Shown here: piece after piece, positions 21,677-63,846 of the stretch
Position numbering within the stretch: the stretch's first letter is position 1
Layout of the letters: each line of letters starts with the position of its first letter
Origin: an uncultured Planctomycetales bacterium
Lineage (GTDB): Bacteria; Omnitrophota; Gorgyraeia; Gygaellales; Profunditerraquicolaceae
Assembly: GCA_964579435.1 (NCBI GenBank)
Contig: CAZOGI010000010.1
Span: forward strand, 23,583-87,582
Length of the DNA: 64,000 bases
Direction: 5' to 3'
The notes under the pieces: model-generated
What the model saw: only the letters and a program-made list of their open reading frames with translations
What the model was told of the DNA's origin: nothing
The model's database searches: none
Position numbers and translations under genes: made by a program

Positions 21677-21680
21677 CCTT

Positions 21681-44705: not shown

Positions 44706-46093
44706 CCGGACAAACAATCCTCCTGGTCAATCCCGGTCACCGCGAATGGGCGCGTGTGCTGCCGCTGGGCATCGCCTACGTTGCCGCTGCCGCCCGGAAA
44801 GCGGGATTCCCGGTGCGCACGATCGACGCAACCGCCGAACGACTTTCACCGCAGGCGCTGGCCCTGCGATTGAAAAAACTCAAACCTGCGGTCCTGGGGA
44901 TCACCGCGACCACGGTGCAGATCGCCTCTGCCTGGGAGATCGCCCGCCTGGCAAAAGAGCATGATCCCGGCTGCGTCACGGTGCTGGGAGGAGTCCACCC
45001 CAGCGCGCTGCCCGAGGAGAGCCTGGGACAGCCGTCTGTTGATTTCGTCTGCAGGGGAGAGGGAGAAGCAACTTTCGTTTCTTTACTCAGCGCCCTTTCC
45101 TCCCGCACTCACCCAGGGTCGGTCCAGGGGATATCCTTCCGCTCAAACGGCTCTGTCGTGCACACGCCGGACCGCCGGCTCGTTCCCGATCCGGACCTCT
45201 TCGCGTTTCCGGCGCGGGAGCTCTTTGACTTCCCCCGCCGGTACCAAAGCCCCCTTGCCCTGCGAAGAAGATGCGCGACGATCCTGACCAGCAGGGGCTG
45301 CCCGGGCACCTGCACCTTCTGCAACAAAAATATCTCCGGAAGCGTCTTTAGGCCGCGCAGCCCCGCCTCGGTCATCGAAGAGATGGAATCGCTCATCCGC
45401 ACCTTCGGCATCCAGGAATTCCATATTGCCGACGACTGTTTCAGCTGGGACATGCAGCGGGTCATGGACCTCTGCGCGCTGATGCGCAAACGCATCCCCG
45501 CCATCCGCTGGGCCTGCACCAACGGCATCCGCGTCGACCGCTCGACCAAACCGTTCTTTCGCGAAATGAAAGCCGCCGGCTGTTACCGCGTCTCCTTCGG
45601 CGTCGAATCGGGAGACGAGGCGCTGCTGAAGCGCATCGGCAAGAATATAGACCAGGAATCGATACGCAGGGCCGTCTCGCTTGCCCAAAGCGCAGGACTC
45701 GTCACCATCTGCTTTTTTATGCTCGGCAATCACGGCGAGACTGCCGCTCACGCTCAAAAAACCATCGAATTCGCCCGCTCTCTGCGCACCGATTACGCCC
45801 AGTTCACGCTGGCCATGCCCTATCCGGGAACCGCATTTTTCAGGCAGCTGGAGAAAGAAGGCCGGATCCGCAGCCGCGATTGGAGGAGGTATTCGGTGTA
45901 CGGGCCGGACATTCCCTACGAGCCGGCCGGGATGAGCGCAGAGGAATTGCTGGGCTTCTACAGACAGGCGTACCGCGCCTTTTATCTGCGGCCACGGCAG
46001 ATCGCCTTTCTCCTTTCCCGGCGGCTGCGCCTCGGCGCCGGCATCGGCAGCTTCGTACGCTCATCAGCGGAGGTCTTGCGCCGTGCCCGATAA
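44702..46093 (+). CDS. B12-binding-domain radical SAM enzyme (paralogue 3)
   Basis: Track ORF 44123 trimmed to ATG 44702 (ATGA overlap). TILLVNPGH..., LTSRGCPGTCTFC. Confidence 0.85.
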   Translation: MTGQTILLVNPGHREWARVLPLGIAYVAAAARKAGFPVRTIDATAERLSPQALALRLKKLKPAVLGITATTVQIASAWEIARLAKEHDPGCVTVLGGVHPSALPEESLGQPSVDFVCRGEGEATFVSLLSALSSRTHPGSVQGISFRSNGSVVHTPDRRLVPDPDLFAFPARELFDFPRRYQSPLALRRRCATILTSRGCPGTCTFCNKNISGSVFRPRSPASVIEEMESLIRTFGIQEFHIADDCFSWDMQRVMDLCALMRKRIPAIRWACTNGIRVDRSTKPFFREMKAAGCYRVSFGVESGDEALLKRIGKNIDQESIRRAVSLAQSAGLVTICFFMLGNHGETAAHAQKTIEFARSLRTDYAQFTLAMPYPGTAFFRQLEKEGRIRSRDWRRYSVYGPDIPYEPAGMSAEELLGFYRQAYRAFYLRPRQIAFLLSRRLRLGAGIGSFVRSSAEVLRRAR

Positions 46094-52900: not shown

Positions 52901-55900
52901 GTCCGGACACCGGCACCAATTATTTTGCGGGAGGCGGCTGGACCGTATCAACCGGGGACGTAAACGGGGACCTTTATGCCGACCTGCTCCTGGGGGCCGT
53001 CGGCTATAACACGAACATGGGCCGGGCTTTCCTGTACTTAAGCAAGCGCTTCGGCCTCATGGACGGCAGCCCTGACCTGACGCTCACCAGCCCGGCGACC
53101 GGCACAAACTCTTTCGGCAGGAACGCCGTCGGAGACGTCAACGGCGACGGTTTTGCCGATATGCTTATCGGTGCGCCCAGCTACGACACCAATAGGGGCC
53201 GGGTATACCTCTACTACGGCGCCTCAACTCCCGACGCCACTGCTGACCTGGTCCTCGCCGGCGAGACAACCGGAACCTATTTCGGCGACCGGATTGCGGT
53301 CAGTGACGTGAACGGCGATTATTTCTCGGACGTGCTGGTTATGGCTTATGCCTATGCCTCGACCCGCGGCAGGGCATACCTCTATTACGGCGGCACGACC
53401 ATGGATGCCACCTGTGACAAGACCTTTACCGGAGAAGCATCAAACACCAATTTCGGCCGCAGCGGCGGCATCGGCGATATCGATAACGACGGCTACGGCG
53501 ACGTCGTCATCGGGGCCAACCTGTACGCAACAAGCAGCGGCCGCGCCTATCTGTTCTGGGGCGCCACCAACATGGATGTCACCTGCGACAAAACCTTCAC
53601 CGGCGAAACAGCAAGCATACAGTTCGGCCAGGATGTCAGCATTTCCGACCTCAACGCCGACTCCTACGGGGATCTGGTCGTCACCGCCTACACCTGGAAC
53701 ACCAGCCAGGGCCGCGCCTATGTCTACAAAGGCGCCAGCCAGGCCTCCTTTGATACGACCTGTGACCTCACCTTAAGCGGCCTCACCACTACCGACAACT
53801 ACGGACGGGCCGCCCGCTCAGGCGATGTCAACAACGACGGATTCGCCGACCTGGTCGTCGGCGCCTACAATTACAACAGCGGACGCGGCCGGGCGTACCT
53901 CTATTACGGCGATACCGTCTCCTGGGTGACCCAGGCAACCGAAAGTTCCCTGGCAGCAGACACCCCCGGATGGATATACGCGTTCATCGATACCGACCCG
54001 AACCTCTATTACACGCCGGATAACTGGACGTATTGGCGGGTCTATCAGGCTCCGGGACAAGATACCAAAATTCTGGATATCGATTACGTGCAGTTCGACT
54101 TCCAGGCAACGGCGGTCAAGCTCATCTCTTTCTGGGCATTCGGCAAGGACGAAGAGGTCCAGGTCAGATGGGAAACCGCCTCTGAATCGCAGAACCTGGG
54201 CTTCAACCTCTACCGCTCGACATCCTCCGACGGAACTTACACCAAGATAAACGCAGGGATCATCTCCGGCCTCGGCAGCTCGCTGACCGGCAAAGAATAC
54301 TCCTTTACCGACGCCGATGTCTCAAACGGCCGCACCTACTACTACAAGCTGGAATCGATCGAGTTCACCGGCACCCGCGTCATGCACGGCCCCATCGAAG
54401 CGCATCCCGGGCTCGATGCCGACTCAGACGGCATGAGCGACGACTGGGAGGCGCATTACGGGCTCAACAGCGCTGACGCCTCGGACGCAGGGGCAGACCG
54501 CGACAGCGACGGACTGACGAATCTGCAGGAATACACCCTGGGCACCGACCCGACCCGCTCGGGCCAGGTAAGCGCAGGCGCAAGCGGCAGCGGCGGGCTC
54601 ACCGTCGTCTCCAGCGACTCAACCGGCATCACCCTGGAACTGCGCACCCCCGGGATCGAAAGCCGCACCGTCACCGTCAACAAACAAGCGTATCAATCCC
54701 TGAGCATCCCTGCCTATGCGCACGGCTATACGGCCATAAGCGCAAGCGCGCGCATGCCGGTCAAGCCGGTGATGCTTGCCCTGCCGCCCAATGCCGGCTG
54801 TTCCGTAGAAATCCTCAGCGAAGAGACGGAGATCTTCAGTAATTATACGGTAGAGCCGGTTACCACCTACACCCTGGAAGCGGATGCCAACGAAGAAGCG
54901 CTGCAATCGGGAGGCTTCGGCAAAACAGGACCGCTCGAGATAACGGTCGATCCGGCCGCGATCAACACCGTCTTCTATCAGCAGGACAGCAGCTATCCCG
55001 GGGAGCGCGCCGAGGTCGAATGGGTGGGAGATCTGCGCTCTCAGCGTATCGCCTGCCTGCGCCTGGCGCCGCTGCGCTTCAACCCGGCAAAGAAGGAGCT
55101 GACGATCTCCAAAGTCCTGCGCGTGCGGGTCACCTTTACCCAGGGAGGCGCTGCATCGGGAAACTGGCAGCTCTCCGAAACGGCCAAAAACGCGCGCATC
55201 AAGATCAAAACCGAAGGAGGCGGCATCCGCCGGCTTACCTGGACCGACCTGTATAACGCCGGCCTCACCGACGTGATCTGGTCCGACCCGCGACTCCTTT
55301 CCATGACCAACCTCGGCACGGAAATCGCTATCCGCGTCAAAGGCGAAGAGGACGGGATCTTCAATTTCGACGATTACGTGGAATTTTACGCCCGGGAAAT
55401 ACCGGCGCATTACGATGGATCGAGCCCCTACGCCGCGTATGCAAAATACTCTCCCCACAATGTTTACTTTTTGGGCTTTGGATCCTCCAACGGCAAACGC
55501 ATGGAGACGCGCGAAAGCAGCGCCAATGAAGGAAGCGTCTCGCCCGCGCGCTTCCGCCACACCGCCACCTTCGAGCAGAACGATTTTTACTGGAGCACCC
55601 GGGCGGGAGGGGAGCACGCAGACCGCTGGTTCTGGTCGCCTGCCCTCTGGGAAGACACGAGCCAGGAATACGCGCTGAACCTGCCCCATGTCGATGTCGA
55701 CAGCGCCGCCGAGACGGCAAGCGTCTCTTTGGTGTACTACCCGCTCCTGTACCTGCCGCAGCCCAGCGAAACCGCCAAAGCGACCGTCGCCCACGAAACA
55801 AGCGCAACCCTCAACGGCGTCTCCCTCGGCAGTGACACCTGGCAGGGCATGCAGGAACGCACCATCGAGGCGGAAATCGCACACGCCAGCCTTATTACCG

Positions 55901-57924
55901 GAAGCAACACCCTCAAGCTCGCGCACAAGAAAGTATCGCCTGCCGAGCACGACGCTCTTATCGCCAATTATTGCACGATCACCTACTGGCACACATTTGA
56001 GGCGGATTCGGACGCGCTCTCCTTCTCCTGCGCGAGCGAAACAGGGGACACCGCCGCATTCACGGTCACCGGCCTGACGACCCAGGAATGCTCTGCTTAC
56101 GATATTACCGATCCTGCCCAGCCGGTCGCCTTTTCCGGGCTCTCCGCGGTTTTCGACCCCGGAACCAACACCTACTGCGTTTCCTTCAAAGACGATATCC
56201 CGGCGGCGCAGGAGCGCCGTTATCTGGTGCTGGCCGACGCGCAAAAGACAGCCCCCGCGGCCCTTTCCTTCGTTGCCGCGCCGGCGCTTGACCTGAGCCT
56301 CGCCGGCAACCACGCCGATTACCTGATCATCACTCATTCCTCTTTTTCGGACGCCCTGGAGCCCCTCAAAAACCTGCACACCGCCCAGGCACTCGACGTG
56401 CAGATCATCGACATCGAAGATATCTATAACGCCTTCGCGTACGGGTTCCCGACGCCGCAGGCGGTCAAGGACTTCGTCAGCTACGCCTACGCGAACTGGA
56501 AAGGGCTCTGCCAAAAAACCTCGCCGCCCCGGGTCATGGCCCCGACGTACGTGCTCCTCGTCGGAGACGCCCACTACGATTACCGCGACAATCTCGGGAC
56601 CGGGCGCAGCATCTATGTGCCGACCTACCTCATTGCGGATCAACCCAATATCGGCGAGACCGCATCCGACAACTGGTTCGCCTGCATGGGGGGACAGGAG
56701 GATACCCTTGCGGATCTCTTTATCGGAAGGCTGCCGGTCAGGACAAACCAGGAGTGCCAGGCGGTAGTCTCCAAAACAATCGCCTACGCGGCACAGGAGG
56801 CCGGGGGAGCGTATACGCGGGCAACCTTCCTGGCCGATGTCGGCAGCGAATTCGAGCAGACCTGCGAGAGCCTCTCCGGCAAACTCTCCGCCGAAGTAAC
56901 CGGGCAAAAACTCTATTTGTCGGACTACCCCAGCGCCGCCTCGTTCGTCTCCGGACTCATCTCCTCCGTCAACAGCGGGACGCTCCTCTTGACCTATGTC
57001 GGCCACGCCGCAACCTATCTCTGGACCGCCGACGGCTCATTCGACACCGACTCCGTCGCCTCTCTGAACAACACCGCCGCCTTCCCGCTGGTCGTTTCCC
57101 TCGACTGCCTCGACGGCTACTTTATCAACCCCCAGGAACAGTACGAATCCCTCGCCGAGACCTTCCTGCGCAAATCCGGCTCCGGCGCCGTCGCCTGTTT
57201 CTCGCCCTCGGGCATGGGCATGCCGTCAAGCCATCTCATACTCGGCACCTATTTCTATAAAGCGCTCTTTGAGAGCGGCTCAACCCATCTGGGACAGGCG
57301 GCAACCGAAGCAAAACTCAATTATTTCGCCAGCACCGGCGCCGCCGGGCTGGACTTGGTGCATACCTATAACCTCTTGGGGGACCCGGCGCTCGCCCTGA
57401 AGATCCCGGCCGCTGCGTCCCAGACCGGCCAGACCGCCGTGACGACGACTGCCGCCGCGACAACTCAAACCGCAACAGAATCGGAATCCGCAACGACAAC
57501 GAGCGCGGAAACAGACGCCTTTACCTCGATCCTCGGCTCGGCGCTGGCCAACGTTGAAGAAGGCAAGAAATGGCGCGACGAAACCAAACAGGCCAAAGAC
57601 CCCCAGGACCCGGCAGAAACATCCGCGGAACCGCAGGGCGTCCTCGCGAAACTGCCGATCCCCAGGATCATCAAAGAGATCGTCAAGAAACAGAAGACGG
57701 CGCTGACGCAGCCAGCCGGCCAACCCGCGGCAACCGGTCTCACCCATGCGGATACCGCGCCGGAGGGAAGCGAATACGCTCAAGACGCAACAGTCCCGGA
57801 GCGTTCATCCGCCGTGCAGCAGAAATCCCCGCGCACGAATATCCTGCGCACCGTCATCGAAACAGTCTGGAAAGCTGTAGTCACCTTCTTCAAAAAACTC
57901 CTGGCCCTGATCCTGGGTAAATGA
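49951..57924 (+). CDS. giant secreted protein: 14 FG-GAP repeats (two predicted 7-bladed propellers) + TSP3-like acidic motif + peptidase C25 (gingipain-like) domain
   Basis: 2657 aa. Signal peptide ...LLCATPHALA. 14 D-x-N-x-D-x-x-x-D / GRAYLYYG units. DADSDGMSDDWE...DSDGLTNLQEYTLGTDP. C25-like ADYLIITH..., YVGHA (His codon 57004-57006), SLDCLDGYF (Cys codon 57106-57108). T/A/E-rich linker and a hydrophobic C-terminal tail. Confidence 0.9.
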   Translation: MKSLPTKKFFRTFLILGITTLLCATPHALAATRFYFDASTAADVTASYDAGWEYQSEAGRYKLNRTKGSSAITIGTQIGPWTAGSANQALDRQYISDPIEAQTISGTVKGQVMSREYNTSDNVNRMYITVKVVSNDGSSVRGTLLALNTYYTNAELISNVTHRNAILANSDTVTNVTAQQGDRILIEIGFGSSTTQTTPEGSCKWGENASDLPENETQTTDGAGWFEFSADITFYTPPKPQFTQKAYQWENDDSTSGVNANSQAAEDNTALTDVRIGQRLTCRMQVENDSTAASSDTVYQLQWENNTDNPGRWFPVGYGTQISYATGLAGLSGASTGTTALCGTPTYTMVAGTWQSGTSQNPPHSMETQRSAEFSFVIDTANAKENKVYRLRLFDKTNAQAFNAYTVYPQLTTVTAANNTLRYSKEPLDAVQNTWRMASYLDETGYDNSASDNSVYDSLPARRLALRAQADLTFTSFDVSQYPTSQMAVGVGDFNNDGYNDLLMGGQRYATYVGRAYLYLGGSPMDSVCDLTMQAGALYTNSYFGSAVAVGDINNDSFDDAVVGNWGYYRMYLYYGSTTMNNVIDMTFTGEATSDYYGYSIGINDVNGDSFKDIVTNAQWWNNGQGRLYVYYGGTTMNNVCDLTINGQGGVHNYPGFACVVEDVNNDSFADILVSSPYYYYSDMRGRAWLWYGGNPMDATCDKTFTGETTGSYFGASGLSIGEVNNDGFKDILIGAYVYSSTKGRSYLFYGATGTSMDITADKTITGNAGDYQGQGEQIVDVNNDDYADLVIGADAFGNSRGVVKIYYGGADMDIVEDLSIATGQTGNYFSQSVNTGDLNNDGAADLIIGANSYPSLTYQGRAWVYYTKPLFAPTQIFAKKNTNNTDYIAFAWKGKTDMAATSDNIIVEAAQQTAMDGTNDETFTGEAGSNFFSNCIALADFNNDHYQDLVLGADGYNSNQGRAYLYYGGTGIVDTAAALTFNCPDTGTNYFAGGGWTVSTGDVNGDLYADLLLGAVGYNTNMGRAFLYLSKRFGLMDGSPDLTLTSPATGTNSFGRNAVGDVNGDGFADMLIGAPSYDTNRGRVYLYYGASTPDATADLVLAGETTGTYFGDRIAVSDVNGDYFSDVLVMAYAYASTRGRAYLYYGGTTMDATCDKTFTGEASNTNFGRSGGIGDIDNDGYGDVVIGANLYATSSGRAYLFWGATNMDVTCDKTFTGETASIQFGQDVSISDLNADSYGDLVVTAYTWNTSQGRAYVYKGASQASFDTTCDLTLSGLTTTDNYGRAARSGDVNNDGFADLVVGAYNYNSGRGRAYLYYGDTVSWVTQATESSLAADTPGWIYAFIDTDPNLYYTPDNWTYWRVYQAPGQDTKILDIDYVQFDFQATAVKLISFWAFGKDEEVQVRWETASESQNLGFNLYRSTSSDGTYTKINAGIISGLGSSLTGKEYSFTDADVSNGRTYYYKLESIEFTGTRVMHGPIEAHPGLDADSDGMSDDWEAHYGLNSADASDAGADRDSDGLTNLQEYTLGTDPTRSGQVSAGASGSGGLTVVSSDSTGITLELRTPGIESRTVTVNKQAYQSLSIPAYAHGYTAISASARMPVKPVMLALPPNAGCSVEILSEETEIFSNYTVEPVTTYTLEADANEEALQSGGFGKTGPLEITVDPAAINTVFYQQDSSYPGERAEVEWVGDLRSQRIACLRLAPLRFNPAKKELTISKVLRVRVTFTQGGAASGNWQLSETAKNARIKIKTEGGGIRRLTWTDLYNAGLTDVIWSDPRLLSMTNLGTEIAIRVKGEEDGIFNFDDYVEFYAREIPAHYDGSSPYAAYAKYSPHNVYFLGFGSSNGKRMETRESSANEGSVSPARFRHTATFEQNDFYWSTRAGGEHADRWFWSPALWEDTSQEYALNLPHVDVDSAAETASVSLVYYPLLYLPQPSETAKATVAHETSATLNGVSLGSDTWQGMQERTIEAEIAHASLITGSNTLKLAHKKVSPAEHDALIANYCTITYWHTFEADSDALSFSCASETGDTAAFTVTGLTTQECSAYDITDPAQPVAFSGLSAVFDPGTNTYCVSFKDDIPAAQERRYLVLADAQKTAPAALSFVAAPALDLSLAGNHADYLIITHSSFSDALEPLKNLHTAQALDVQIIDIEDIYNAFAYGFPTPQAVKDFVSYAYANWKGLCQKTSPPRVMAPTYVLLVGDAHYDYRDNLGTGRSIYVPTYLIADQPNIGETASDNWFACMGGQEDTLADLFIGRLPVRTNQECQAVVSKTIAYAAQEAGGAYTRATFLADVGSEFEQTCESLSGKLSAEVTGQKLYLSDYPSAASFVSGLISSVNSGTLLLTYVGHAATYLWTADGSFDTDSVASLNNTAAFPLVVSLDCLDGYFINPQEQYESLAETFLRKSGSGAVACFSPSGMGMPSSHLILGTYFYKALFESGSTHLGQAATEAKLNYFASTGAAGLDLVHTYNLLGDPALALKIPAAASQTGQTAVTTTAAATTQTATESESATTTSAETDAFTSILGSALANVEEGKKWRDETKQAKDPQDPAETSAEPQGVLAKLPIPRIIKEIVKKQKTALTQPAGQPAATGLTHADTAPEGSEYAQDATVPERSSAVQQKSPRTNILRTVIETVWKAVVTFFKKLLALILGK

Positions 57925-58745
57925 CAACCCGTCTTTTTTGCATCGAAATAGCCGATTATCCCTTCGGCATAGAAGCGCCCGAACCCCTCTGGGGCGCATT
58001 TCAGGAAACCTATCTGCCGTTCCTGAGCGCCCGGGAGCCGCGCTACCGCATCCGCGCCGAGATCGACCCCACCGCGCAACCCGTTGACCTCTGGGAGGGG
58101 ATGACCCTGGATAAGACGACGCTCTCGATCAGCGATGACACCTCGAGTGCGCGTTTCGATTTCAAGACAAAAGAAGGGACGATCCGCCTGAACCCCGCCA
58201 GACTCCTGGTGCCGTTGGGCGCCTTCCTGCGCAATATCGTCACTGTGCTCTTGAGCCTCCAGGATGACGGCCTCCTGATGCATGCCTGCGGGGTCCTGTA
58301 CGAAGAGGAAGCATTCCTCTTCACCGGGCGTTCCGGCGCCGGAAAAACGACGGTATCGCGCGCGCTCGCCCATTTGCCGACGATCTCCGACGATCTTTTG
58401 CTGGTCAAGCCCACCCCCGGAGGATTCGGCGTCTGGCCGCACCCGCGCTGGGGAGACCGCCAGAGCGGATCATTCCAAAACCGGCCGCACCGGATCAGCA
58501 GTATTTACCTCTTGTGCCAGGATACCGGGGTTTTCGTGAAAAGGCTCGGCCCGGCCCGGGCCACCGCGCACCTCTTGACCGTTCCGCACGTCCCCGTCAA
58601 CCGCATCCCCGCCGCGCGCATCCTGGAAAGCACCCAACGCCTGGCGGAGACGGTCCCGGTGTACGAACTGCACTTCCGGCCCGACCCGTCGTTCTGGGAA
58701 AAGATACTGCAGGAGAGAGAAAGGATTGTCGCTGCATGGAAATGA
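57921..58745 (+). CDS. HPr kinase-related (HprK-like) P-loop kinase
   Basis: 274 aa. ATGA overlap with the giant gene stop. MHACGVLYEEEAFLFTGRSGAGKTTVSRAL...ISDD aligns with the HprK C-terminal catalytic core. Confidence 0.7.
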   Translation: MTTRLFCIEIADYPFGIEAPEPLWGAFQETYLPFLSAREPRYRIRAEIDPTAQPVDLWEGMTLDKTTLSISDDTSSARFDFKTKEGTIRLNPARLLVPLGAFLRNIVTVLLSLQDDGLLMHACGVLYEEEAFLFTGRSGAGKTTVSRALAHLPTISDDLLLVKPTPGGFGVWPHPRWGDRQSGSFQNRPHRISSIYLLCQDTGVFVKRLGPARATAHLLTVPHVPVNRIPAARILESTQRLAETVPVYELHFRPDPSFWEKILQERERIVAAWK

Positions 58746-59017
58746 AATCAGCAATCCCGTTCAAGAACGAGAAGACCGCTTCCCGCATCATCCAGGACCA
58801 GGCCGTGATCGTCATCCTGGAAAACCAGGAGACGGTGGTCCTCAACGAGAGCGCCTCGCGCATCTGGGAACTAAGCGACGGGAAACGCACGCTCGGGGAA
58901 ATCGCCCGCATACTGGAAGAGGAATTTTCGGTATCCGCGCAAACCGCCCTGCAGGACGCCGCCGCCTTCCTGGGCGAAGCGGAAGGCAAGGGGATCTTTT
59001 CACTCAACCGCCCATGA
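58742..59017 (+). CDS. PqqD-family protein (stand-alone RiPP recognition element-like)
   Basis: Track ORF 58514 trimmed to ATG 58742 (ATGA overlap); ATG 58736 is an alternative. VVLNESASRIWELSDGKRTLGEIARILEEEFSV...AAFLGEAEGKGIF. Confidence 0.75.
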   Translation: MKSAIPFKNEKTASRIIQDQAVIVILENQETVVLNESASRIWELSDGKRTLGEIARILEEEFSVSAQTALQDAAAFLGEAEGKGIFSLNRP

Positions 59018-60036
59018 CCCCGACCGGCTTCACCGATATCTTTGCGCACAGCATGCGGCAGAACCTCTGCCTGATCGCGCACCTGGAGCTCACCCACGCC
59101 TGCAACCTGCGCTGCCGGCACTGTTACTGCGTCCCCGACGCGGACCGGCCGGAGTGCTCGTTCGGGGAAATCCGCTCGGTCCTGCGGCAGCTCAAAGAAG
59201 CGGGAACGCTCTTTTTGTGCCTCAGCGGAGGCGAACTGCTCTGCAGAGCGGACATCTTCGAGATACTCTCCTGCGCGCGCGCCGAAGGGTTCGCCCTGCG
59301 CCTGATGACCAACGGCACGCTCATCGACGAAACGGCAGCCGCGCGCATCGCAGCCGCAGCCGCGGTTACGGTCGACATGAGCATCTACGCGGCAAATCCC
59401 CGGCTGCACGACGCGGTGACGGGAAAACCCGGATCGTTGCACCTGACCCTGCAGGCAGCAGCGCTCCTGAGGGAACGGGGGATACGCGTCGTGTTCAAGT
59501 TCATCGTCATGAAAGACACCGTCGGGGAATTCAAAAACATCCGCGCGCTCTGCCAAGAGAGAGGGATCGATTTCATCTACGACGTCTGCCTGGTCGAGCG
59601 CACCGACGGCGACGCCCGGCCGCTGCAGTACCGCCTGGACAAAGAAGGAATCAAATCGTTCCTGCGCCGGAACGCGCTGTCTCCCGCGGCATCGCCCGAC
59701 GGGTCGGTTTTGTGCACCGCCGGACTCAACAACATCTTCATCTCTCCGCAGCTGGACGTCTATCCCTGCATCGGCATCCGTGAAAAGATCGGCTCCCTGC
59801 GCCAAGGTTCCCTGAAGGACATCTGGGAATCCGCGCCGCTGCTGCGGAGGCTGCGCACCCTCACCGATGCCGAACTGAACGCCTGCTCTTCCTGCGCGAA
59901 GCGCGCCTACTGCTTCCGCTGCGCCGGCCTGGCGCTGGAAGCGTCAAACGACCTCTGCGCCCGCTCGCCGTTCGACTGCGAAGTTGCCCAGGCGCTCGCG
60001 GAAACCGCACAAAGAGAAAAGGAGACCGTCCTATGA
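59014..60036 (+). CDS. radical SAM enzyme with C-terminal SPASM domain (peptide-maturase type)
   Basis: Track ORF 58726 trimmed to ATG 59014 (ATGA overlap). LELTHACNLRCRHCY. C-terminal Cys array CTAG...YPC...CSSCAKRAYCFRCAG...C...C. Confidence 0.85.
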   Translation: MTPTGFTDIFAHSMRQNLCLIAHLELTHACNLRCRHCYCVPDADRPECSFGEIRSVLRQLKEAGTLFLCLSGGELLCRADIFEILSCARAEGFALRLMTNGTLIDETAAARIAAAAAVTVDMSIYAANPRLHDAVTGKPGSLHLTLQAAALLRERGIRVVFKFIVMKDTVGEFKNIRALCQERGIDFIYDVCLVERTDGDARPLQYRLDKEGIKSFLRRNALSPAASPDGSVLCTAGLNNIFISPQLDVYPCIGIREKIGSLRQGSLKDIWESAPLLRRLRTLTDAELNACSSCAKRAYCFRCAGLALEASNDLCARSPFDCEVAQALAETAQREKETVL

Positions 60037-60194
60037 ACAAGAAAAATCAACCCGCCGCGAAACGACCGTACACCAAACCCGCTATCGCCTTCAGCAAAAA
60101 GATCGAGATCATCTCCGCGGTATGCGATTCCGGCTTCGGCGGACTGAGCAACTGCCGCAAATCATCGACGCCCTGCCTGCGTTCCCGGGCCTAA
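60033..60194 (+). CDS. 53-aa candidate precursor peptide (not in the supplied ORF track)
   Basis: ATG 60033 overlaps the rSAM stop (ATGA), with GGAG 8 nt upstream. Translation: MNKKNQPAAKRPYTKPAIAFSKKIEIISAVCDSGFGGLSNCRKSSTPCLRSRA. GC3-rich codons. Three Cys and several Ser/Thr lie in the C-terminal 23 residues. Confidence 0.55.
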   Translation: MNKKNQPAAKRPYTKPAIAFSKKIEIISAVCDSGFGGLSNCRKSSTPCLRSRA

Positions 60195-60207
60195 GCTCAG
60201 GCGTACC

Positions 60208-61824
60208 GTGGACCGTTCAGACCCCGAGACCGTCTCGCTCTCGCTGGTACGCGACAGCCTCAATGTCCGCGGCGGGACGATCACCCTCACGATCGCCGGA
60301 TCCTGCATGTCGCCGCTGATCCGGGCAGGAGACCGCGTCACCATACGATCGGTTTCTTTCGCTGAACTCACTCCCGGCGACATAATCGCCTTCCAGGACC
60401 GCAACCTGCTCTACGCGCACCGCCTGACCGGCAAAGATCCCCGCACGCAGAATCTGCACACCCAGGCGGACCGGTCATGGCAGACGGACATCGCGTTCTC
60501 CTTTTCCCAGGTGTTGGGAAAAGTGACCGCCGTCTCGAAACAGGGCAGGACCCTGCATCTTGACCGCTTCCCCGGCCGGCAGATCAACCGTGCCTATGGC
60601 GCCTGCCGCCGCCTGCTTCAGGCGATCACGCTCCCCGCGCGAGCGGCGCATGAGGCCCTGCGCCGGAGGCAGGGGACAGAGGAGCGGCAAGCACTCTTTG
60701 CGGTTGTCTCTGTCGCCAGCCGCGGCTTTCTGGAGACCCCGTTCCCGCTGCCGGAGCGCATCGATGAGCCCCTCTTTGGGGAACAGGCGCGCGCCCAAAC
60801 ACTGGCACCCTGGTGCTTTTGCGTACTGCGCGATCGGCAGCGCGACCACGATGTTTTTTCTCCCACTCTGCGCGAAACGCTCAGGCTCGAATATTACGAA
60901 ACCTTTTCCCTGAATGCCCAATCCCTCCCCGGGACACAGGAACTCTTCGCTCACCTGCGCGCCCAGGAGATCGGATTCCTCGTCTTCAAAGGCCTGGTGC
61001 TGGCCCAGGGCGTCTATGCGGATATCGGAGCGCGCCGCCTGGGAGACACCGATATCCTCATCAGAAGGGAGGACCTCTCCCGTCTCGACCGGGTCCTGCG
61101 CGAGAGAGGCTTTCGTTGTCCGGTTCCCCTCACGGCAGTCCCGGAGGCGCCCAACGCGTACCGCAATGCGCTGCTGTATTTGCCTCCCGACGGATCCCTG
61201 CAGAGACCGCTGCATGTGTACTGGCACTGGGTCAATCTCGCCGCGTTTTCCCGGCGCCTCCCCGGGTCGATACGGATGGAACGGATCTGGCAGGACCGCA
61301 TCAAGGTCGACATCGCCGGCATCTGCCTGGAGACGTTCTCCTGGGAACATCACCTCATCTACCTGTCCATGCACGCGCTCGCCCATTCCTATTTCCCGCT
61401 CAGCACCCTTATCGACATCGCCGGGCTGCTGACGAAACGCCGAAAAGACCTCGAGTGGAACGGCATCCTCAAAGACGCCCAGACCTTCGGCCTGGAGCGG
61501 CCGCTCTTGCTTGCCCTCACCCTGGCCCGGGAGATCTGCTCCGCCCCGGTTCCCGCCGCGGCGTTAAGCCGGCTACGGCCAACCCGCCTGAGCTTATTCG
61601 AAAGACGCTTCATCGCAGACGCGCAGCGGTTACGGCTGAAAACGGGAAAAGAGTGGCTCCTTTACCTGGGCATGAACGACACGCCGCTTGAGCGCCTCGA
61701 TTTTATCCTCCGCGCGCTTTTTCCGCCCGCGCACCTTCTTGCCCTCATCCGCCAGCAGCCGCGCGCCGCCCTCGCCGCATCGTACGGGAAACGCCTGGTC
61801 GCGGCAATGCGCAGCGCCTCCTAA
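60208..61824 (+). CDS. fusion protein: S26B (SipW/Sec11)-like signal-peptidase domain + NTP_transf_5-type nucleotidyltransferase
   Basis: 538 aa with GTG start. N-terminal IAGSCMSPLIRAGDRV...GDIIAF...YAHRL...ADRSWQTD...LGKVTAV follows the ER-type SPase pattern. Central KGLVLAQGVYADIGARRLGDTDILIRREDL nucleotidyltransferase motif. Confidence 0.7.
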   Translation: MDRSDPETVSLSLVRDSLNVRGGTITLTIAGSCMSPLIRAGDRVTIRSVSFAELTPGDIIAFQDRNLLYAHRLTGKDPRTQNLHTQADRSWQTDIAFSFSQVLGKVTAVSKQGRTLHLDRFPGRQINRAYGACRRLLQAITLPARAAHEALRRRQGTEERQALFAVVSVASRGFLETPFPLPERIDEPLFGEQARAQTLAPWCFCVLRDRQRDHDVFSPTLRETLRLEYYETFSLNAQSLPGTQELFAHLRAQEIGFLVFKGLVLAQGVYADIGARRLGDTDILIRREDLSRLDRVLRERGFRCPVPLTAVPEAPNAYRNALLYLPPDGSLQRPLHVYWHWVNLAAFSRRLPGSIRMERIWQDRIKVDIAGICLETFSWEHHLIYLSMHALAHSYFPLSTLIDIAGLLTKRRKDLEWNGILKDAQTFGLERPLLLALTLAREICSAPVPAAALSRLRPTRLSLFERRFIADAQRLRLKTGKEWLLYLGMNDTPLERLDFILRALFPPAHLLALIRQQPRAALAASYGKRLVAAMRSAS

Positions 61825-61859
61825 CCCAACTCCTTCAGCGACTGGGAATTAAAAAAATC

Positions 61860-61888
61860 TTGCCCGATCGGATGAATTGTGTTAGAGT
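61860..61888 (+). promoter_or_regulatory. sigma70-like promoter TTGCCC-17 nt-TAGAGT
   Basis: -35 at 61860-61865 and -10 at 61883-61888. The downstream gene has an AAGAGGGG SD 4 nt before ATG 61915. Confidence 0.4.
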
Positions 61889-61914
61889 ATTAAAAATATA
61901 GGTAAGAGGGGACA

Positions 61915-63846
61915 ATGCCGCAATACGATTTCAACCTTCGCGATTATTTCCGGATCTTCCGCAAACGCAAGCTCGTCATCATCCTGACCTTTCTTCTGGT
62001 TTGTGCCGTCAGCTATGCCTTTCTTTCCACCCAGCCGACCGTCTATCAGGCCGATTGCACCGTCAAGATCGAAGAGCGCAAGACCATCGCCGGGCTCCTG
62101 ACCGAATGGATCATGTACAATCCGGGCGATGTCATGGAATCCCAGACCAAGATCATCCGGGGGTTCCCGATCATGCGCCAGGTCGCCCTGCGCCTGAAGC
62201 TCATCGACCAGAACAGCTCGGAGGATCAGATAAACGAAGCGGTGAACCGGCTCCAGGACCAGGTCGAGACCGAGCGTATCGAGTCGACCAACATGATCAA
62301 GATCAAGACCTCTTCCGCATCGCCCGACGAAGCGATGAACCTGGCCAATACCGTCGCCGAGGTCTATATAGAAGAGAACCTCACCGAAAAAGCCAAACAG
62401 GCACGCCACGTGCGCCAGTTCATCCAGGACCAGCTCTCGGGGCTTGACTCCCGACTCAAGGAATCAGAAGAGAAACTCAAGGAATTCGGGACCGGTACCG
62501 ACGTCAAATTTGCCGCGCCCATCGAACAGAAACTCATCGAGCTGGAATTCCAGCGCGCGGAACTCCTGCAGAAATACACCGAAAAACACCCTCTGGTCAT
62601 CCAGATCCGCGAACAGATCAAAGAGCTCCAGCAACGGGTCAGCGATTACAGCGGCCAGGAGCTGGAGTACGCGCGGCTGACCCGGGAGATCGATGTCAAT
62701 AAGAAGCTCTACGCCATACTCAAGGAAAAGCTCGAAGAGGCGCGCATAACCGAGGCACAGAAGGTCGGCGACATCTCGATCGTCAACCCGGCCTTTTTGC
62801 CGACGACGCCGCTTTCCGGGAACAAACAACTCAAATTTCTCATCGGCGCCTTCCTCGGGCTCCTGCTGGGACTGACCTTCGCCTTCGTGACCGAAACCCT
62901 GGACACCTCCATCGCCACGATCGAGGACGTCGAATCGGTGATCAAGCTGCCGGTCCTGGGGGTCGTGCCTTCCTTCGAATCCGCGGCCCAGGAAGACCGC
63001 AGCATGCTCGACGAAATAAAAGAGCTCTTCCGGGGGAAAAAACGCACGCCGAGCGAAGAAGCCGCGATCCGGCTCATCGCGCACTATAAGCCGCAGTCGC
63101 CGATAACCGAGGCCTACCGCAACATCCATACCAACCTGAAACTGGACCAGAGCAAGAAGACGATCCTCATCACCAGTTCCAACCCGCAGGAAGGCAAGAG
63201 CAGCGTCGTCTGCAACCTGGCCATCGTCATGTCGCAGCTGGGGCTTAAAACCCTGATCATCTCCTCAGACCTGCGCCGTCCCGTGCTCTCCAAAACCTTC
63301 GGGATCCCGCGCGAACCGGGGCTCAGCGAGCTTGCCATGGGTACGGCGACCCTGGACCAGGCCCTCTACAGCATCACCGACATCCTGCTGGGGACCCTCA
63401 AGATCGAAGACATCCAAAAGACCCGCGGCATCGACAATATCTGGATCATCCCCTCGGGGAGCATGGTCACCAACCCCGTGGAGATCATCGAATCCGCCAA
63501 GCTGCAGGAGATCGTCGAGGCCGCCAAGAAACGTTTCGATTTCATCATCTTCGATTCCCCGCCGGTCCTTCCCGTCACCGACGCCAGCCTCCTGGCGCCG
63601 AAAATGGATTGCGTCATCATCGTCTACGAGATCGGCCGCACCAGCCGTGAAGCGCTCCTGCGCACCAAGATCCAGCTGGAAACCGTCGGCGCGCGTATAA
63701 CCGGGATCGTGCTCAACCATACCAAGCCCCAGACCGAAGCCCTGGCGACCTATCCCTACAATTACCGGTACAAATACCGCTACTATGACGAAGAGCACCA
63801 GAAGAAGCAGGGAGGGTTTTTCAAAAAGGCGCGCAAGAGAAGCTAA
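61915..63846 (+). CDS. polysaccharide co-polymerase (Wzz domain) fused to BY-kinase tyrosine autokinase
   Basis: 643 aa. N-terminal TM + coiled-coil Wzz region. Walker A SSNPQEGKSS, A-prime ISSDLRRP, Walker B IIFDSPPV. C-terminal Tyr cluster YPYNYRYKYRYYDEE. Confidence 0.9.
   Translation: MPQYDFNLRDYFRIFRKRKLVIILTFLLVCAVSYAFLSTQPTVYQADCTVKIEERKTIAGLLTEWIMYNPGDVMESQTKIIRGFPIMRQVALRLKLIDQNSSEDQINEAVNRLQDQVETERIESTNMIKIKTSSASPDEAMNLANTVAEVYIEENLTEKAKQARHVRQFIQDQLSGLDSRLKESEEKLKEFGTGTDVKFAAPIEQKLIELEFQRAELLQKYTEKHPLVIQIREQIKELQQRVSDYSGQELEYARLTREIDVNKKLYAILKEKLEEARITEAQKVGDISIVNPAFLPTTPLSGNKQLKFLIGAFLGLLLGLTFAFVTETLDTSIATIEDVESVIKLPVLGVVPSFESAAQEDRSMLDEIKELFRGKKRTPSEEAAIRLIAHYKPQSPITEAYRNIHTNLKLDQSKKTILITSSNPQEGKSSVVCNLAIVMSQLGLKTLIISSDLRRPVLSKTFGIPREPGLSELAMGTATLDQALYSITDILLGTLKIEDIQKTRGIDNIWIIPSGSMVTNPVEIIESAKLQEIVEAAKKRFDFIIFDSPPVLPVTDASLLAPKMDCVIIVYEIGRTSREALLRTKIQLETVGARITGIVLNHTKPQTEALATYPYNYRYKYRYYDEEHQKKQGGFFKKARKRS

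What the first reader, a model, noticed from the sequence alone, without database searches (positions are those of the whole stretch)
60033..60194. Unannotated 53-aa ORF immediately after the rSAM/SPASM gene: candidate precursor peptide
This ORF falls below the apparent length cutoff of the supplied track. ATG 60033 overlaps the maturase stop (ATGA) and GGAG lies 8 nt upstream. Roughly 70% of codons end in G or C, like the bona fide genes here. Translation: MNKKNQPAAKRPYTKPAIAFSKKIEIISAVCDSGFGGLSNCRKSSTPCLRSRA. The architecture resembles a RiPP precursor. It has a basic and hydrophobic N-terminal leader-like half (KPAIAFSKKIEIIS, potentially the strand bound by PqqD). Its C-terminal core-like half has three Cys spaced 9 and 6 residues apart (possible thioether donors for an rSAM/SPASM enzyme) and several Ser/Thr (possible kinase or nucleotidyltransferase targets). 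AIA|F fits an AxA signal-peptidase-type site that the downstream S26-like domain could cut.
Basis: seen in the sequence. Interest (0 to 1): 0.8.

Follow-up and report, generated by a model that had tools for sequence, protein, structure and literature searches.

The report
Real precursor peptide gene after rSAM
The 53-codon ORF is a genuine, widely conserved gene for a small cysteine-containing peptide that is very probably the substrate of the neighbouring peptide-chaperone, radical-SAM, kinase-like, peptidase and nucleotidyltransferase genes, which makes the locus a radical-SAM-bearing cousin of the recently described 'linear polyphosphorylated peptide' systems of polysaccharide loci.

Summary
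The ORF at 60033..60194 (+) is as described: ATGA overlap with the rSAM stop, GGAG 8 nt upstream, and GC3 of 0.74 against 0.44 and 0.56 in the other frames. It is a real gene. I assembled 55 distinct homologous peptides. Y13, P16 and C31 are invariant, and E25, C41 and C48 nearly so. Synonymous sites are saturated while the protein is conserved. In all 13 loci with upstream sequence, the peptide gene lies directly after a homologous rSAM/SPASM gene. The usual order is giant FG-GAP/C25 protein, ScmC/HprK-like P-loop protein, PqqD, rSAM, peptide, archaeal-type signal-peptidase-like protease, NTP_transf_5, Wzc.

The closest characterised system is the LPP family (Popov 2026, Bacillota), which has an SpI-like leader peptidase, PqqD RRE, HprK-like kinase and NTP_transf_5. 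The leader here aligns in register with LppA (Y-16, P-13, small residue at -1).

Two differences stand out. An rSAM/SPASM enzyme is added. An invariant Cys sits at +3, where LPP carries its phospho-serine.

No Pfam or NCBIfam model covers the peptide. The chemistry and the biological role are inferred, not shown. Verdict: a new variant of a known kind.

The parts
60033..60194 (+). Precursor peptide gene (53 aa plus stop): MNKKNQPAAKRPYTKPAIAFSKKIEIISAVCDSGFGGLSNCRKSSTPCLRSRA
   Evidence: Family of 55 distinct homologues. GC3 0.74. Coding-type substitution pattern.
60021..60024 (+). GGAG ribosome-binding site, 8 nt before the ATG, inside the 3' end of the rSAM gene
   Evidence: Read directly from the sequence.
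60033..60116 (+). Predicted leader (residues 1-28). It has a Lys/Arg-rich N-terminus, then Y13-T-K-P16-A-I (60069..60086) and I24-E25-I-I-S28.
   Evidence: Y13 and P16 are invariant in 55/55, E25 in 52/55. Position 28 is A, S, T or G in 55/55. The register is identical to the LppA leader, with Y-16, P-13, V-11, L-10 and T-1. The cleavage site is inferred, not shown.
60117..60191 (+). Predicted core (residues 29-53): AVCDSGFGGLSNCRKSSTPCLRSRA, with C31 (+3), S33 (+5), C41 (+13) and C48 (+20)
   Evidence: C31 55/55, S/T33 52/55, C41 51/55, C48 50/55.
59014..60036 (+). Radical SAM/SPASM enzyme (340 aa). Its start overlaps the PqqD stop (ATGA) and its stop overlaps the peptide ATG.
   Evidence: PF04055 74.5 bits and PF13186 35 bits. 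CxxxCxxC plus 7 conserved C-terminal Cys. AF2 model with pLDDT 89.5 is nearest to PqqE, SuiB, CteB, SkfB and anSME.
58736..59017 (+). Discrete PqqD-family RiPP recognition element (93 aa)
   Evidence: PF05402 58.7 bits. The best solved relative is 9x8z_B (LppB), then the lasso RRE TbiB1. LppB residues N33, D70 and F74, which hold the leader Tyr and Pro, align with N37, D74 and F78.
57921..58745 (+). ScmC-family, HprK-related P-loop protein (274 aa), a putative peptide kinase
   Evidence: Weak NCBIfam hits to ScmC, HprK_rel_B and HprK_rel_A over residues 111-184. Homologues are hit by Pfam ScmC PF27840. Conserved GxSGxGK[ST]T and an S-[DE]-[DE] motif. Kinase activity is not shown.
60208..61824 (+). 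Fusion protein (538 aa). The N-terminal part is an archaeal/SipW-type signal-peptidase-like domain (about aa 1-150, 60208..60657). The C-terminal part is NTP_transf_5 (aa 188-443, 60769..61536).
   Evidence: TIGR02228 26.6 bits and PF14907 138 bits. Stand-alone homologues score 43.5-55.9 bits on TIGR02228. The SM.P / HR / (K)GD motifs align, and the window has C33/H71/D88.
49951..57924 (+). Giant 2657-aa protein with FG-GAP repeats, Propeptide_C25 and Peptidase_C25. Its stop overlaps the ScmC-like start.
   Evidence: A homologue lies directly upstream of the cassette in L001, L002, L006, L010, L094 and L096, next to it in L032, L071 and L072, and nearby on the opposite strand in L021 and L028.
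61915..63846 (+). Wzc-like polysaccharide co-polymerase / tyrosine autokinase that flanks the cassette
   Evidence: The same flank is seen in L001, L002, L006, L010 and L092.

Best explanation
The ORF encodes the precursor peptide of a RiPP-type modification cassette that is translationally coupled in the order ScmC-like protein, PqqD, rSAM/SPASM, peptide, peptidase-NTP_transf_5.

Shown here: the gene is real, conserved and syntenic. It has a two-part design. The leader carries invariant Y13 and P16. The core carries invariant C31 and nearly invariant S/T33, C41 and C48.

Inferred mechanism, step by step:
1. The discrete PqqD protein binds the leader through the YxxPx[I/V] motif, as the LPP and lasso RREs do.
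2. It presents the core to the rSAM/SPASM enzyme, which modifies the Cys-containing core. The most likely chemistry is one or more Cys-derived thioether cross-links of the sactipeptide or ranthipeptide kind.
3. The HprK-related ScmC-like protein phosphorylates a core hydroxyl. The best candidate is S33, at +5.
4. The NTP_transf_5 domain extends that phosphate, by analogy with PsmN and LppN.
5. The archaeal-type signal-peptidase-like domain removes the leader between S28 and A29. This releases a 25-residue core, AVCDSGFGGLSNCRKSSTPCLRSRA.

Biological role: the cassette is wedged between a giant FG-GAP/C25-peptidase protein and Wzc in a polysaccharide locus, and this arrangement recurs across phyla. 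The product therefore probably acts at the cell surface or in the exopolysaccharide matrix rather than as a free-standing antibiotic. This is the weakest inference.
For: Gene reality:
- The profile search returned 40 representatives, nearly all 45-67 aa.
- 55 distinct sequences show the conservation pattern listed above.
- Third-codon-position differences exceed first and second in 15/15 pairs, with pS 0.68-1.02 against pN 0.30-0.51.
- GC3 is 0.74 in frame.

Synteny:
- The peptide ORF lies directly after the rSAM gene in the window, L001, L002, L003, L006, L007, L010, L089, L090, L092, L094, L095 and L096. That is 13 of 13 loci with upstream sequence.
- Among more distant rSAM homologues, ORFs with a YxxP motif followed by Cys are enriched just downstream of the rSAM gene. 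The count is 12/285 against 125/14605 elsewhere, odds ratio 5.1, p=1.3e-5.

Link to a characterised system:
- LPP clusters have an SpI-like peptidase (TIGR02228), a PqqD RRE, an HprK-like kinase and NTP_transf_5 inside polysaccharide loci. Their leader motif is YxxPxVLxHQxIxFET|xxS. Experiments showed RRE binding through Y-16 and P-13, cleavage after T-1 by LppS, and phosphorylation of S3 by LppK.
- The same models hit the window proteins.
- The window PqqD is nearest to LppB among solved structures and keeps LppB N33, D70 and F74.
- PsmK/PsmN give a precedent for an HprK-like kinase acting with an uncharacterised nucleotidyltransferase of the kind Popov et al. assign to NTP_transf_5.

rSAM enzyme:
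- It has a full SPASM domain with 7 conserved Cys.
- Its model is nearest to the peptide-modifying enzymes PqqE, SuiB, CteB, SkfB and anSME.

Operon: no promoter-like site and no convincing terminator lies within it.
Against: - Nothing here shows binding, modification or cleavage.
- The core is unusually well conserved for a RiPP. That would also fit a small structural or regulatory protein.
- The ScmC-like protein matches HprK-related models only weakly and only around the P-loop. It may not be a kinase.
- The position that is phosphorylated in LPP (+3) is Cys here, so the LPP chemistry cannot simply be transferred.
- The window's peptidase domain has Cys where homologues have the nucleophilic Ser. 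It could be inactive, or it could use a different mechanism.
- No exporter gene lies in the visible part of the window's cassette.
- The rSAM chemistry cannot be told from sequence or fold.
Confidence: 0.8

Rival explanations
1. The peptide is an LPP-type substrate only. It would be bound by the RRE, phosphorylated and extended by the kinase-like protein and NTP_transf_5, and cut by the SpI-like peptidase. The rSAM/SPASM enzyme would act on something else, such as the giant C25 protein, a sugar or a cofactor.
For: LPP systems work without any rSAM enzyme. The nearest NCBIfam matches of the rSAM enzyme are non-peptide enzymes (AhbD, NirJ), though all lie far below cut-off. The locus is rich in other rSAM and sugar-modifying genes.
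Against: The rSAM gene is translationally coupled on both sides, to PqqD and to the peptide. The invariant Cys residues are not part of the published LPP motif, which has Ser at +3. Some distant loci show only PqqD, rSAM and a YxxP/Cys peptide, with no detectable ScmC, NTP_transf_5 or peptidase (L012 and L018). The fold is nearest to peptide-modifying SPASM enzymes.
Confidence: 0.08
2. The ORF encodes a small unmodified protein that is a partner of the enzymes rather than their substrate. It could be a scaffold, a regulator, or a subunit of the rSAM enzyme or the peptidase.
For: Conservation extends over the whole length, including the 'core'. There is only one copy per locus. There is no hypervariable core of the kind typical of antimicrobial RiPPs.
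Against: The leader is in exact register with an experimentally cleaved and RRE-bound leader, including the -3/-1 pattern. The RRE residues that contact Tyr and Pro are kept. A 25-residue Cys-rich tail is unlikely to fold on its own.
Confidence: 0.07
3. The product is a conventional secreted antimicrobial RiPP (bacteriocin), and its position in a polysaccharide locus is incidental.
For: Most rSAM/SPASM-modified Cys peptides studied so far (sactipeptides, ranthipeptides) were found as antimicrobials or signals; this rests on my own knowledge. Some related loci carry ABC exporters (L006; L097).
Against: The arrangement of giant C25 protein, cassette and Wzc recurs in Omnitrophota, Nitrospirota, Desulfobacterales, Kiritimatiellae and Verrucomicrobiota MAGs. 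The core is conserved rather than diversifying. The window's cassette shows no immunity gene or exporter. LPP clusters sit in capsule loci too.
Confidence: 0.15
4. The ORF is a chance open frame in GC-rich DNA and encodes nothing.
For: ORFs of this size are common here (82 of at least 40 aa in 12 kb). A single-sequence word search found only the ORF itself.
Against: All the conservation, synteny, codon-position and GC3 results.
Confidence: 0.01

Closest known systems
LPP (linear polyphosphorylated peptide) RiPP family: LppA/K/B/S/D/N of Paenibacillus alginolyticus (Popov et al., Nat Commun 2026, PMC13381572)
   Same: - Discrete PqqD RRE.
- Archaeal/SipW-type signal-peptidase-like leader peptidase (TIGR02228, Ser/His/Asp type).
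- HprK-related P-loop protein.
- NTP_transf_5 protein.
- Location inside a polysaccharide locus.
- Leader with Y at -16, P at -13, aliphatic residues at -11 and -10, I at -5, a hydrophobic residue at -3 and a small residue at -1.
- The window's PqqD is closest to LppB among solved structures.
   Different: - An rSAM/SPASM gene sits between the RRE and the precursor.
- The core is short (about 25 aa), conserved, and carries three conserved Cys.
- Cys, not Ser, occupies +3.
- The host phyla are not Bacillota, whereas the paper calls LPP restricted to Bacillota.
- The window's cassette has no MsbA-like exporter.
- The peptidase is fused to NTP_transf_5 and has Cys at the nucleophile position.
- The cassette is tightly linked to a giant C25-peptidase protein.
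Phosphorylated or glycosylated lasso peptides (paeninodin, pseudomycoidin: PsmK/PsmN; PMC6993621)
   Same: - [Y/W]xxP leader bound by a PqqD-type RRE.
- HprK-type kinase paired with an 'uncharacterised NTP transferase'. The kinase phosphorylates a Ser, and the transferase is needed to add hexose to the phosphate.
   Different: - The cassette has no macrolactam synthetase and no B2 cysteine protease.
- The phosphorylated C-terminal Ser of those peptides is not conserved here. Only 25 of 55 members end in S or T, and the window peptide ends in Ala.
SynChlorMet (SCM) cassette: ScmC, ScmD, ScmE, ScmF (NCBIfam TIGR04248-04251)
   Same: A ScmC-family protein, a PqqD homologue and PqqE-like rSAM/SPASM enzyme(s) in one cassette. 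The best NCBIfam hit of the window's P-loop protein is ScmC. From my own recollection of the TIGRFAMs text, no precursor was identified for SCM.
   Different: All scores lie far below the equivalog cut-offs: ScmC 23.8 against 125, ScmD 17.5 against 100, ScmE 100.5 against 400. There is one rSAM gene, not two. A three-rSAM relative (L031) is not SCM either.
Sactipeptide and ranthipeptide maturation (AlbA, SkfB, CteB, PapB, StsB)
   Same: An rSAM enzyme with a full SPASM domain, an RRE, and a Cys-bearing precursor encoded next to the maturase. The structural model is close to CteB and SkfB.
   Different: The RRE is a separate protein rather than an N-terminal domain. No family cut-off is reached. 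The kinase-like, NTP_transf_5 and signal-peptidase-like partners are not part of those systems. Thioether formation is untested.

Membership tests
RiPP precursor with a [Y/W]xxP leader read by a discrete PqqD-type RRE (lasso/LPP type) | [Y/W]xxPx[L/V/I/F/A] motif in the N-terminal part of a short peptide | tested here: met
   Y13-x-x-P16-x-[I/V/L]18 in 55/55 family members. The motif definition comes from PMC13381572.
RiPP precursor with a [Y/W]xxP leader read by a discrete PqqD-type RRE (lasso/LPP type) | Discrete PqqD/RRE gene in the cluster that keeps the Tyr- and Pro-contacting residues | tested here: met
   PF05402 58.7 bits. The best PDB hits are LppB (9x8z_B) and TbiB1. LppB N33, D70 and F74 align with N37, D74 and F78.
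RiPP precursor with a [Y/W]xxP leader read by a discrete PqqD-type RRE (lasso/LPP type) | Physical binding of the leader to the RRE | not testable with these tools
   Needs a pull-down, ITC or co-crystal. No multimer prediction tool was available.
LPP family (Popov et al. 2026) | SpI-like (archaeal-type, TIGR02228) leader peptidase with a Ser/His/Asp triad | tested here: met
   The window domain scores 26.6 bits, below the 51.85 cut-off. Stand-alone homologues score 43.5-55.9 bits, two of them above cut-off. The motifs SM.P, HR[LIV] and (K)GD align. In the window the nucleophile position is Cys33.
LPP family (Popov et al. 2026) | HprK-like kinase | tested here: inconclusive
   Only weak hits limited to the P-loop region, to ScmC, HprK_rel_A and HprK_rel_B. 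The PDB profile search gives PEPCK-type P-loops. The single-sequence AF2 model is unusable, with pLDDT 31.6.
LPP family (Popov et al. 2026) | NTP_transf_5 'NTP transferase' | tested here: met
   PF14907 E=5e-40, 138 bits. The same Pfam family is listed for LppN in Supplementary Data 2.
LPP family (Popov et al. 2026) | MsbA-like exporter in the core cluster | tested here: not met
   None lies between 49951 and 64000 in the window. One is present in some relatives: L006 has NTP_transf_5 fused to an ABC exporter, and L097 has one too.
LPP family (Popov et al. 2026) | Leader consensus YxxPxVLxHQxIxFET with cleavage after -1 | tested here: inconclusive
   The register and residue classes match: Y-16, P-13, [IV]-11, [IV]-10, I-5, [VAT]-3 and [AS]-1. 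The H-8, Q-7, F-3, E-2 and T-1 identities are not kept. Cleavage itself is untested.
LPP family (Popov et al. 2026) | Phospho-acceptor Ser at core position +3 | tested here: not met
   Position +3 is Cys in 55/55. S/T is at +5 in 52/55.
LPP family (Popov et al. 2026) | No other core-modifying enzyme (linear product) | tested here: not met
   An rSAM/SPASM gene is always adjacent. 'Radical_SAM' and 'SPASM' are absent from the paper's text and from the held part of its domain tables.
SynChlorMet cassette | Equivalog-level matches to ScmC, ScmD, ScmE and ScmF, with two rSAM genes | tested here: not met
   23.8/125, 17.5/100, 100.5/400 and 74.2/400 bits. There is a single rSAM gene.
Sactipeptide / ranthipeptide | rSAM maturase with a full SPASM domain (7-Cys auxiliary-cluster motif) | tested here: met
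   C30/C34/C37 plus invariant C234, C252, C291, C294, C300, C303 and C322. PF13186 hit.
Sactipeptide / ranthipeptide | Cys-to-carbon thioether cross-links in the product | not testable with these tools
   Needs MS/NMR of the modified peptide.
Sactipeptide / ranthipeptide | Membership of a curated maturase family (AlbA, StsB, SkfB, PapB) | tested here: not met
   StsB 96.2/625 and AlbA 61.7/850 bits. PapB and SkfB are not among the best 25 of the 65 families matched.
Lasso peptide | Macrolactam synthetase (Asn-synthase-like) and B2 protease in the cluster | tested here: not met
   Neither is present in the cassette or in homologous cassettes. The only Asn synthase in the window lies 36 kb away and carries a GATase domain.

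The most novel reading that the evidence does not exclude
This would be a previously undescribed RiPP class: an rSAM-remodelled relative of LPP that is part of cell-surface or exopolysaccharide assembly rather than a free natural product. In this reading, the invariant Cys at the position of the LPP phospho-serine is the site of new chemistry. Candidates are an rSAM-made cross-link, or an oxidised or thio-linked handle that the kinase-like protein and NTP_transf_5 then extend with a phospho-sugar. The modified peptide would then be handled by, or attached through, the co-conserved giant C25 (gingipain/PorU-family) protein and the Wzc machinery. It could serve, for example, as a primer, an anchor or a matrix cross-linker. 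The same peptide superfamily (YxxP leader, Cys-x9-11-Cys) may also supply the missing precursors of other ScmC/PqqD/rSAM cassettes.
Probability: 0.15. Interest if true: 0.85.

Novelty: new variant of a known kind. Interest (0 to 1): 0.62.

Why it matters
- It gives a concrete, testable substrate for an rSAM/SPASM enzyme family that has none assigned. No Pfam or NCBIfam model covers the peptide.
- It extends the LPP machinery, described only in 2026, well beyond the Bacillota to which it was thought restricted. That machinery comprises the RRE, the SpI-like leader peptidase, the HprK-like protein and NTP_transf_5. The new hosts include Omnitrophota, Nitrospirota, Desulfobacterales, Elusimicrobia, Anaerolineae, WOR-3, Kiritimatiellae and Verrucomicrobiota MAGs.
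- It shows that this machinery has been combined with radical chemistry on a Cys-rich core.
- It ties a RiPP-like cassette to a giant C25-peptidase surface protein and to polysaccharide export across phyla. This bears on the open question of what LPP-type peptides do in capsule and biofilm loci.
- The predicted cleavage site, the binding motif and the candidate modified residues are specific enough to design the first experiments.

Tried and rejected
- Word-index search with the single peptide found only itself. Homologues appeared only after they were recovered through synteny and the search was repeated with an alignment.
- Exact look-up of the window peptide's contig failed, so the source organism was not identified.
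With A2 it gave only 5 short contigs.
- Literature searches gave nothing relevant: SynChlorMet; ScmC; 'HPr kinase + nucleotidyltransferase + radical SAM + PqqD'; 'HprK + radical SAM + RiPP'; and PF14907.
- Filing the cassette as the SCM cassette was rejected on score cut-offs. A three-rSAM relative, L031, is not SCM either.
- The AF2 model of the ScmC-like protein from a single sequence was unusable (pLDDT 31.6). Locus-derived homologues could not be submitted.
- The PDB profile search with the ScmC alignment gave only generic P-loop and PEPCK hits.
- The peptide profile against the PDB gave nothing meaningful.
- The fold search of the rSAM model did not discriminate between chemistries.
- The idea that C31-D-S-x-R mimics the sulfatase C-x-[PA]-x-R formylglycine motif (an anSME-like reaction) was kept only as a weak lead. 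Position +2 from the Cys is S/T, not P/A. Position +4 from the Cys (core +7) is R in only 22/55. The anSME model is not among the best 25 families listed for the enzyme.
- A phospho-acceptor at the C-terminal Ser, as in paeninodin, was rejected as a family feature. Only 25/55 members end in S or T.
- P0012 (40% identical rSAM) lies next to an NRPS with no peptide. L098 has no PqqD. The association therefore does not hold for every distant homologue.
Full report
**1. Observation.**
The ORF 60033..60194 (+) exists and translates exactly as quoted. Its ATG overlaps the TGA of the preceding rSAM ORF, giving ATGA. GGAG lies at 60021-60024, 8 nt upstream. GC3 in this frame is 0.74. The neighbouring genes have 0.76-0.82, and the other two frames of the same stretch have 0.44 and 0.56. 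The three Cys residues (C31, C41, C48) are separated by 9 and 6 residues.

An ORF of this size is not remarkable in 61% GC DNA. There are 82 ORFs of at least 40 aa in 12 kb. The case therefore rests on conservation.

**2. Surroundings.**
The genes from 49951 to 63846 are all on the + strand, and those from the giant protein to the peptide gene overlap one another:
- a 2657-aa protein with FG-GAP repeats, Propeptide_C25 and Peptidase_C25;
- a 274-aa ScmC-family, HprK-related P-loop protein, 57921..58745;
- a 93-aa PqqD protein, 58736..59017;
- a 340-aa rSAM/SPASM enzyme, 59014..60036;
- the small ORF;
- a 538-aa fusion of a signal-peptidase-like domain and NTP_transf_5, 60208..61824, starting 13 nt after the peptide stop;
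- a Wzc-like co-polymerase/tyrosine kinase.

No promoter-like site and no convincing terminator lies inside this stretch. The rest of the window is a polysaccharide locus. It contains GT2, GT4 and GT1 glycosyltransferases, PMT_2/TPR proteins, an Asn synthase and B12-binding rSAM enzymes.

**3. Is the ORF a gene?**
A word-index search with the peptide alone found only the peptide itself. Going through the rSAM protein instead gave homologues of 44-50% identity. Every contig with downstream sequence carries a called 52-63 aa ORF directly after the rSAM gene, with an obviously related sequence (L001, L002, L003).

An alignment of these recovered 13 close peptides. A full HMM scan of 1.84 billion representatives then found 40 clusters at E<=1e-3, nearly all 45-67 aa long.

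Pooling everything gives 55 distinct sequences:

| Position | Conservation |
|---|---|
| Y13 | 55/55 |
| P16 | 55/55 |
| C31 | 55/55 |
| E25 | 52/55 |
| K15 | 50/55 |
| S/T33 | 52/55 |
| C41 | 51/55 |
| C48 | 50/55 |
| Position 28 | always A, S, T or G |
| Distance Y13 to first Cys | 18 residues in 52/55 |

Codon-level comparison of six loci shows more third-position than first- or second-position differences in 15 of 15 pairs. Synonymous sites are saturated (pS 0.68-1.02) against pN 0.30-0.51. That is the signature of a translated frame under purifying selection.

The peptide gene lies directly after the rSAM gene, from overlapping to about 45 nt away, in all 13 loci that have a strong peptide hit and upstream sequence.

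Among more distant rSAM homologues from a scan of 185,579 species genomes, ORFs with a YxxP motif followed by Cys are enriched just downstream of the rSAM gene. The count is 12/285 against 125/14605 elsewhere, odds ratio 5.1, p=1.3e-5.

A second architecture (L008, L097) places a related peptide between PqqD and rSAM. Its sequence reads ...YVAPxLxSRAMFYGAAGC-x9-C...GSS.

**4. What it is.**
No Pfam or NCBIfam model matches any member at a meaningful level.

The literature search turned up one directly relevant paper: Popov et al., Nat Commun 2026 (PMC13381572). It defines 'linear polyphosphorylated peptides' (LPP). These are RiPP clusters embedded in capsular polysaccharide loci of Bacillota. 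Their core genes are:
- a discrete RRE, LppB (PqqD);
- an HprK-like kinase, LppK;
- an uncharacterised NTP transferase, LppN (Pfam NTP_transf_5);
- an MsbA-like exporter.

Their precursors share YxxPxVLxHQxIxFETxxS. Three things were shown experimentally. LppB binds the leader through Y-16 and P-13. LppS cuts after T-1 only when LppB presents the leader, and F-3, E-2, T-1 and L-10 matter for this. LppK polyphosphorylates S3 of the core.

The window's cassette contains the same protein families:
- PF05402 at 58.7 bits;
- PF14907 at 138 bits;
- TIGR02228 at 26.6 bits for the fused domain, and 43.5-55.9 bits for the stand-alone homologues in L001, L003, L006, L094 and L095;
- weak ScmC, HprK_rel_A and HprK_rel_B matches for the P-loop protein.

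Among all solved structures, the window's PqqD is closest to LppB itself (9x8z_B, E=0.004), followed by the lasso RRE TbiB1. In that alignment, LppB N33, D70 and F74 fall on N37, D74 and F78 of the window protein. The paper describes those LppB residues as fixing the Pro kink, hydrogen-bonding the leader Tyr and sandwiching the Pro.

When the YxxP motifs are superposed, the leaders align without gaps:

| Window residue | Position relative to the predicted cut |
|---|---|
| Y13 | -16 |
| P16 | -13 |
| [I/V]18 | -11 |
| [I/V]19 | -10 |
| I24 | -5 |
| [V/A/T]26 | -3 |
| [A/S]28 | -1 |

This predicts cleavage between S28 and A29. It also reveals a conserved signal-peptidase-type -3/-1 pattern at that site.

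**5. How it differs from LPP.**
- An rSAM/SPASM gene is always present between the RRE and the precursor. 'Radical' and 'SPASM' do not occur in the LPP paper, and no Radical_SAM or SPASM entry occurs in the held part of its domain tables.
- The core is short, conserved and carries three conserved Cys.
- The residue at +3, which is the phospho-serine of LppA, is an invariant Cys here. A conserved S/T sits at +5.
- The hosts are MAGs of Omnitrophota, Elusimicrobia, Anaerolineae, Nitrospirota, Desulfobacterales, WOR-3, Kiritimatiellae and Verrucomicrobiota. LPP was described as restricted to Bacillota.
- A giant C25-peptidase protein is co-conserved next to the cassette in at least 11 loci besides the window.
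- In the window, the peptidase is fused to NTP_transf_5, and Cys33 sits where homologues have the nucleophilic Ser (GSCMSP against G[DR]SM.P). H71 and D88 are in place.

**6. The rSAM enzyme.**
It has the CxxxCxxC motif and seven invariant C-terminal Cys, which make a full SPASM domain. By sequence it is nearest to PqqE, SkfB, BlsE, SuiB and CteB in the PDB. An AF2 model (pLDDT 89.5) matches PqqE, BlsE, SuiB, CteB, SkfB and anSME with TM-scores of 0.6-0.7. All curated NCBIfam families are far below cut-off. It is therefore a peptide-modifying-type SPASM enzyme of unassigned chemistry.

**7. Mechanism, and what is shown or inferred.**
Shown: a real, conserved, syntenic small gene with a leader/core design, and a set of neighbouring protein families that matches an experimentally characterised RiPP pathway.

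Inferred:
- PqqD binds the YxxP leader.
- The rSAM enzyme modifies the Cys-rich core. I commit to Cys-derived thioether cross-linking as the most likely chemistry.
- The ScmC-like protein phosphorylates a core hydroxyl, with S33 the best candidate.
- NTP_transf_5 extends the phosphate. The precedent is PsmN, which is required for hexose addition to the phosphate of pseudomycoidin.
- The signal-peptidase-like domain cuts at S28|A29.

The role is probably at the cell surface or in the exopolysaccharide matrix, given the recurrent position between the C25 giant protein and Wzc. This is the least secure step. The biological role of LPPs is itself unknown.

**8. Rivals.**
- The rSAM enzyme acts on another substrate and the peptide is only an LPP-type substrate.
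- The peptide is an unmodified partner protein.
- The product is an ordinary secreted bacteriocin.
- The ORF is a chance frame.

The last is excluded by the data. The others are less likely for the reasons given in their entries, but only experiments can exclude them.

**9. Novelty and verdict.**
The system is not a member of LPP as defined, nor of the SCM cassette, the lasso peptides or any curated sactipeptide or ranthipeptide family. Defining features were tested and not met in each case. It works most like LPP with an added radical-SAM step, so it is a new variant of a known kind. The peptide family had no model or description that I could find. Interest is moderate to high for RiPP and cell-envelope specialists.

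Noticed in passing
window 60208..60657 (aa 1-150 of the 538-aa fusion); also L027:4623-5246: The signal-peptidase-like domain has Cys at the nucleophile position (GSC33MSP), with H71 and D88 in place. L027 also has Cys there (GTCM). The other eight homologues aligned have Ser. All have His where LexA has the general-base Lys, which makes this the Sec11/SipW (Ser-His-Asp) type. A natural Cys-His-Asp version of this fold would be unusual.
   Followed up: partly
window 60208..61824; L003:7296-8850; L006:7232-10266: The peptidase and NTP_transf_5 are one fused ORF in the window but adjacent separate genes in L003, L006, L010 and L094. In L001 an ABC transporter and a polysaccharide-export gene lie between them. 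In L006, NTP_transf_5 is instead fused to an ABC exporter. L002 and L096 have NTP_transf_5 directly after the peptide, with no peptidase gene called.
   Followed up: partly
window 49951..57924; L001:1-4861; L002:1-3921; L006:1-4934; L010:3-3059; L032; L071; L072; L094; L096: A giant FG-GAP plus Propeptide_C25 plus Peptidase_C25 protein lies directly upstream of the cassette, with stop/start overlap in the window. It is co-conserved with the cassette across several phyla. Its relation to the peptide (processing, attachment or none) is unknown.
   Followed up: partly
L008:5801-6004 and L097:4741-5004: A second architecture exists in which a related peptide is encoded between PqqD and the rSAM gene. 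The peptide reads ...RRKLAYVAPxLxSRAMFYGAAGC-x9-C...GSS, with two Cys. NTP_transf_5 is divergently transcribed, and L097 has an MsbA-like ABC exporter.
   Followed up: partly
L012:5672-5950, L014:5593-6186, L021:5990-6214, L028:6000-6197, L031:7113-7328, L027:2157-2309, L032:5971-6159, L071:5968-6165, L072:6001-6213: Divergent small ORFs with a basic N-terminus, a YxxPx[VIL] motif and a Cys-bearing tail lie right after more distant rSAM homologues. This points to a wider precursor superfamily. L031 has three tandem rSAM genes. L019 and L026 (Acidobacteriota) share a different tail, ...VIICVSGC.
   Followed up: partly
window 41869..46093: There are three tandem paralogous ORFs of B12-binding-domain radical SAM type. 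The first was confirmed by Pfam (B12-binding plus Radical_SAM). The next two show the same layout and CxxxCxxC motifs by eye. They are followed by two GT2 glycosyltransferases and a membrane/TPR protein.
   Followed up: no
window 21519..23585: An Asn synthase with a glutamine amidotransferase domain lies 36 kb upstream of the cassette. It looks like an AsnB of polysaccharide loci rather than a lasso cyclase, but this was not examined further.
   Followed up: no
family-wide: The segment after the invariant Cys reads C-[DN]-[ST]-[AGS]-[RWY]. This loosely recalls the sulfatase formylglycine motif C-x-[PA]-x-R, which is acted on by the SPASM enzyme anSME. The resemblance is partial: R at that position in only 22/55.
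   Followed up: partly
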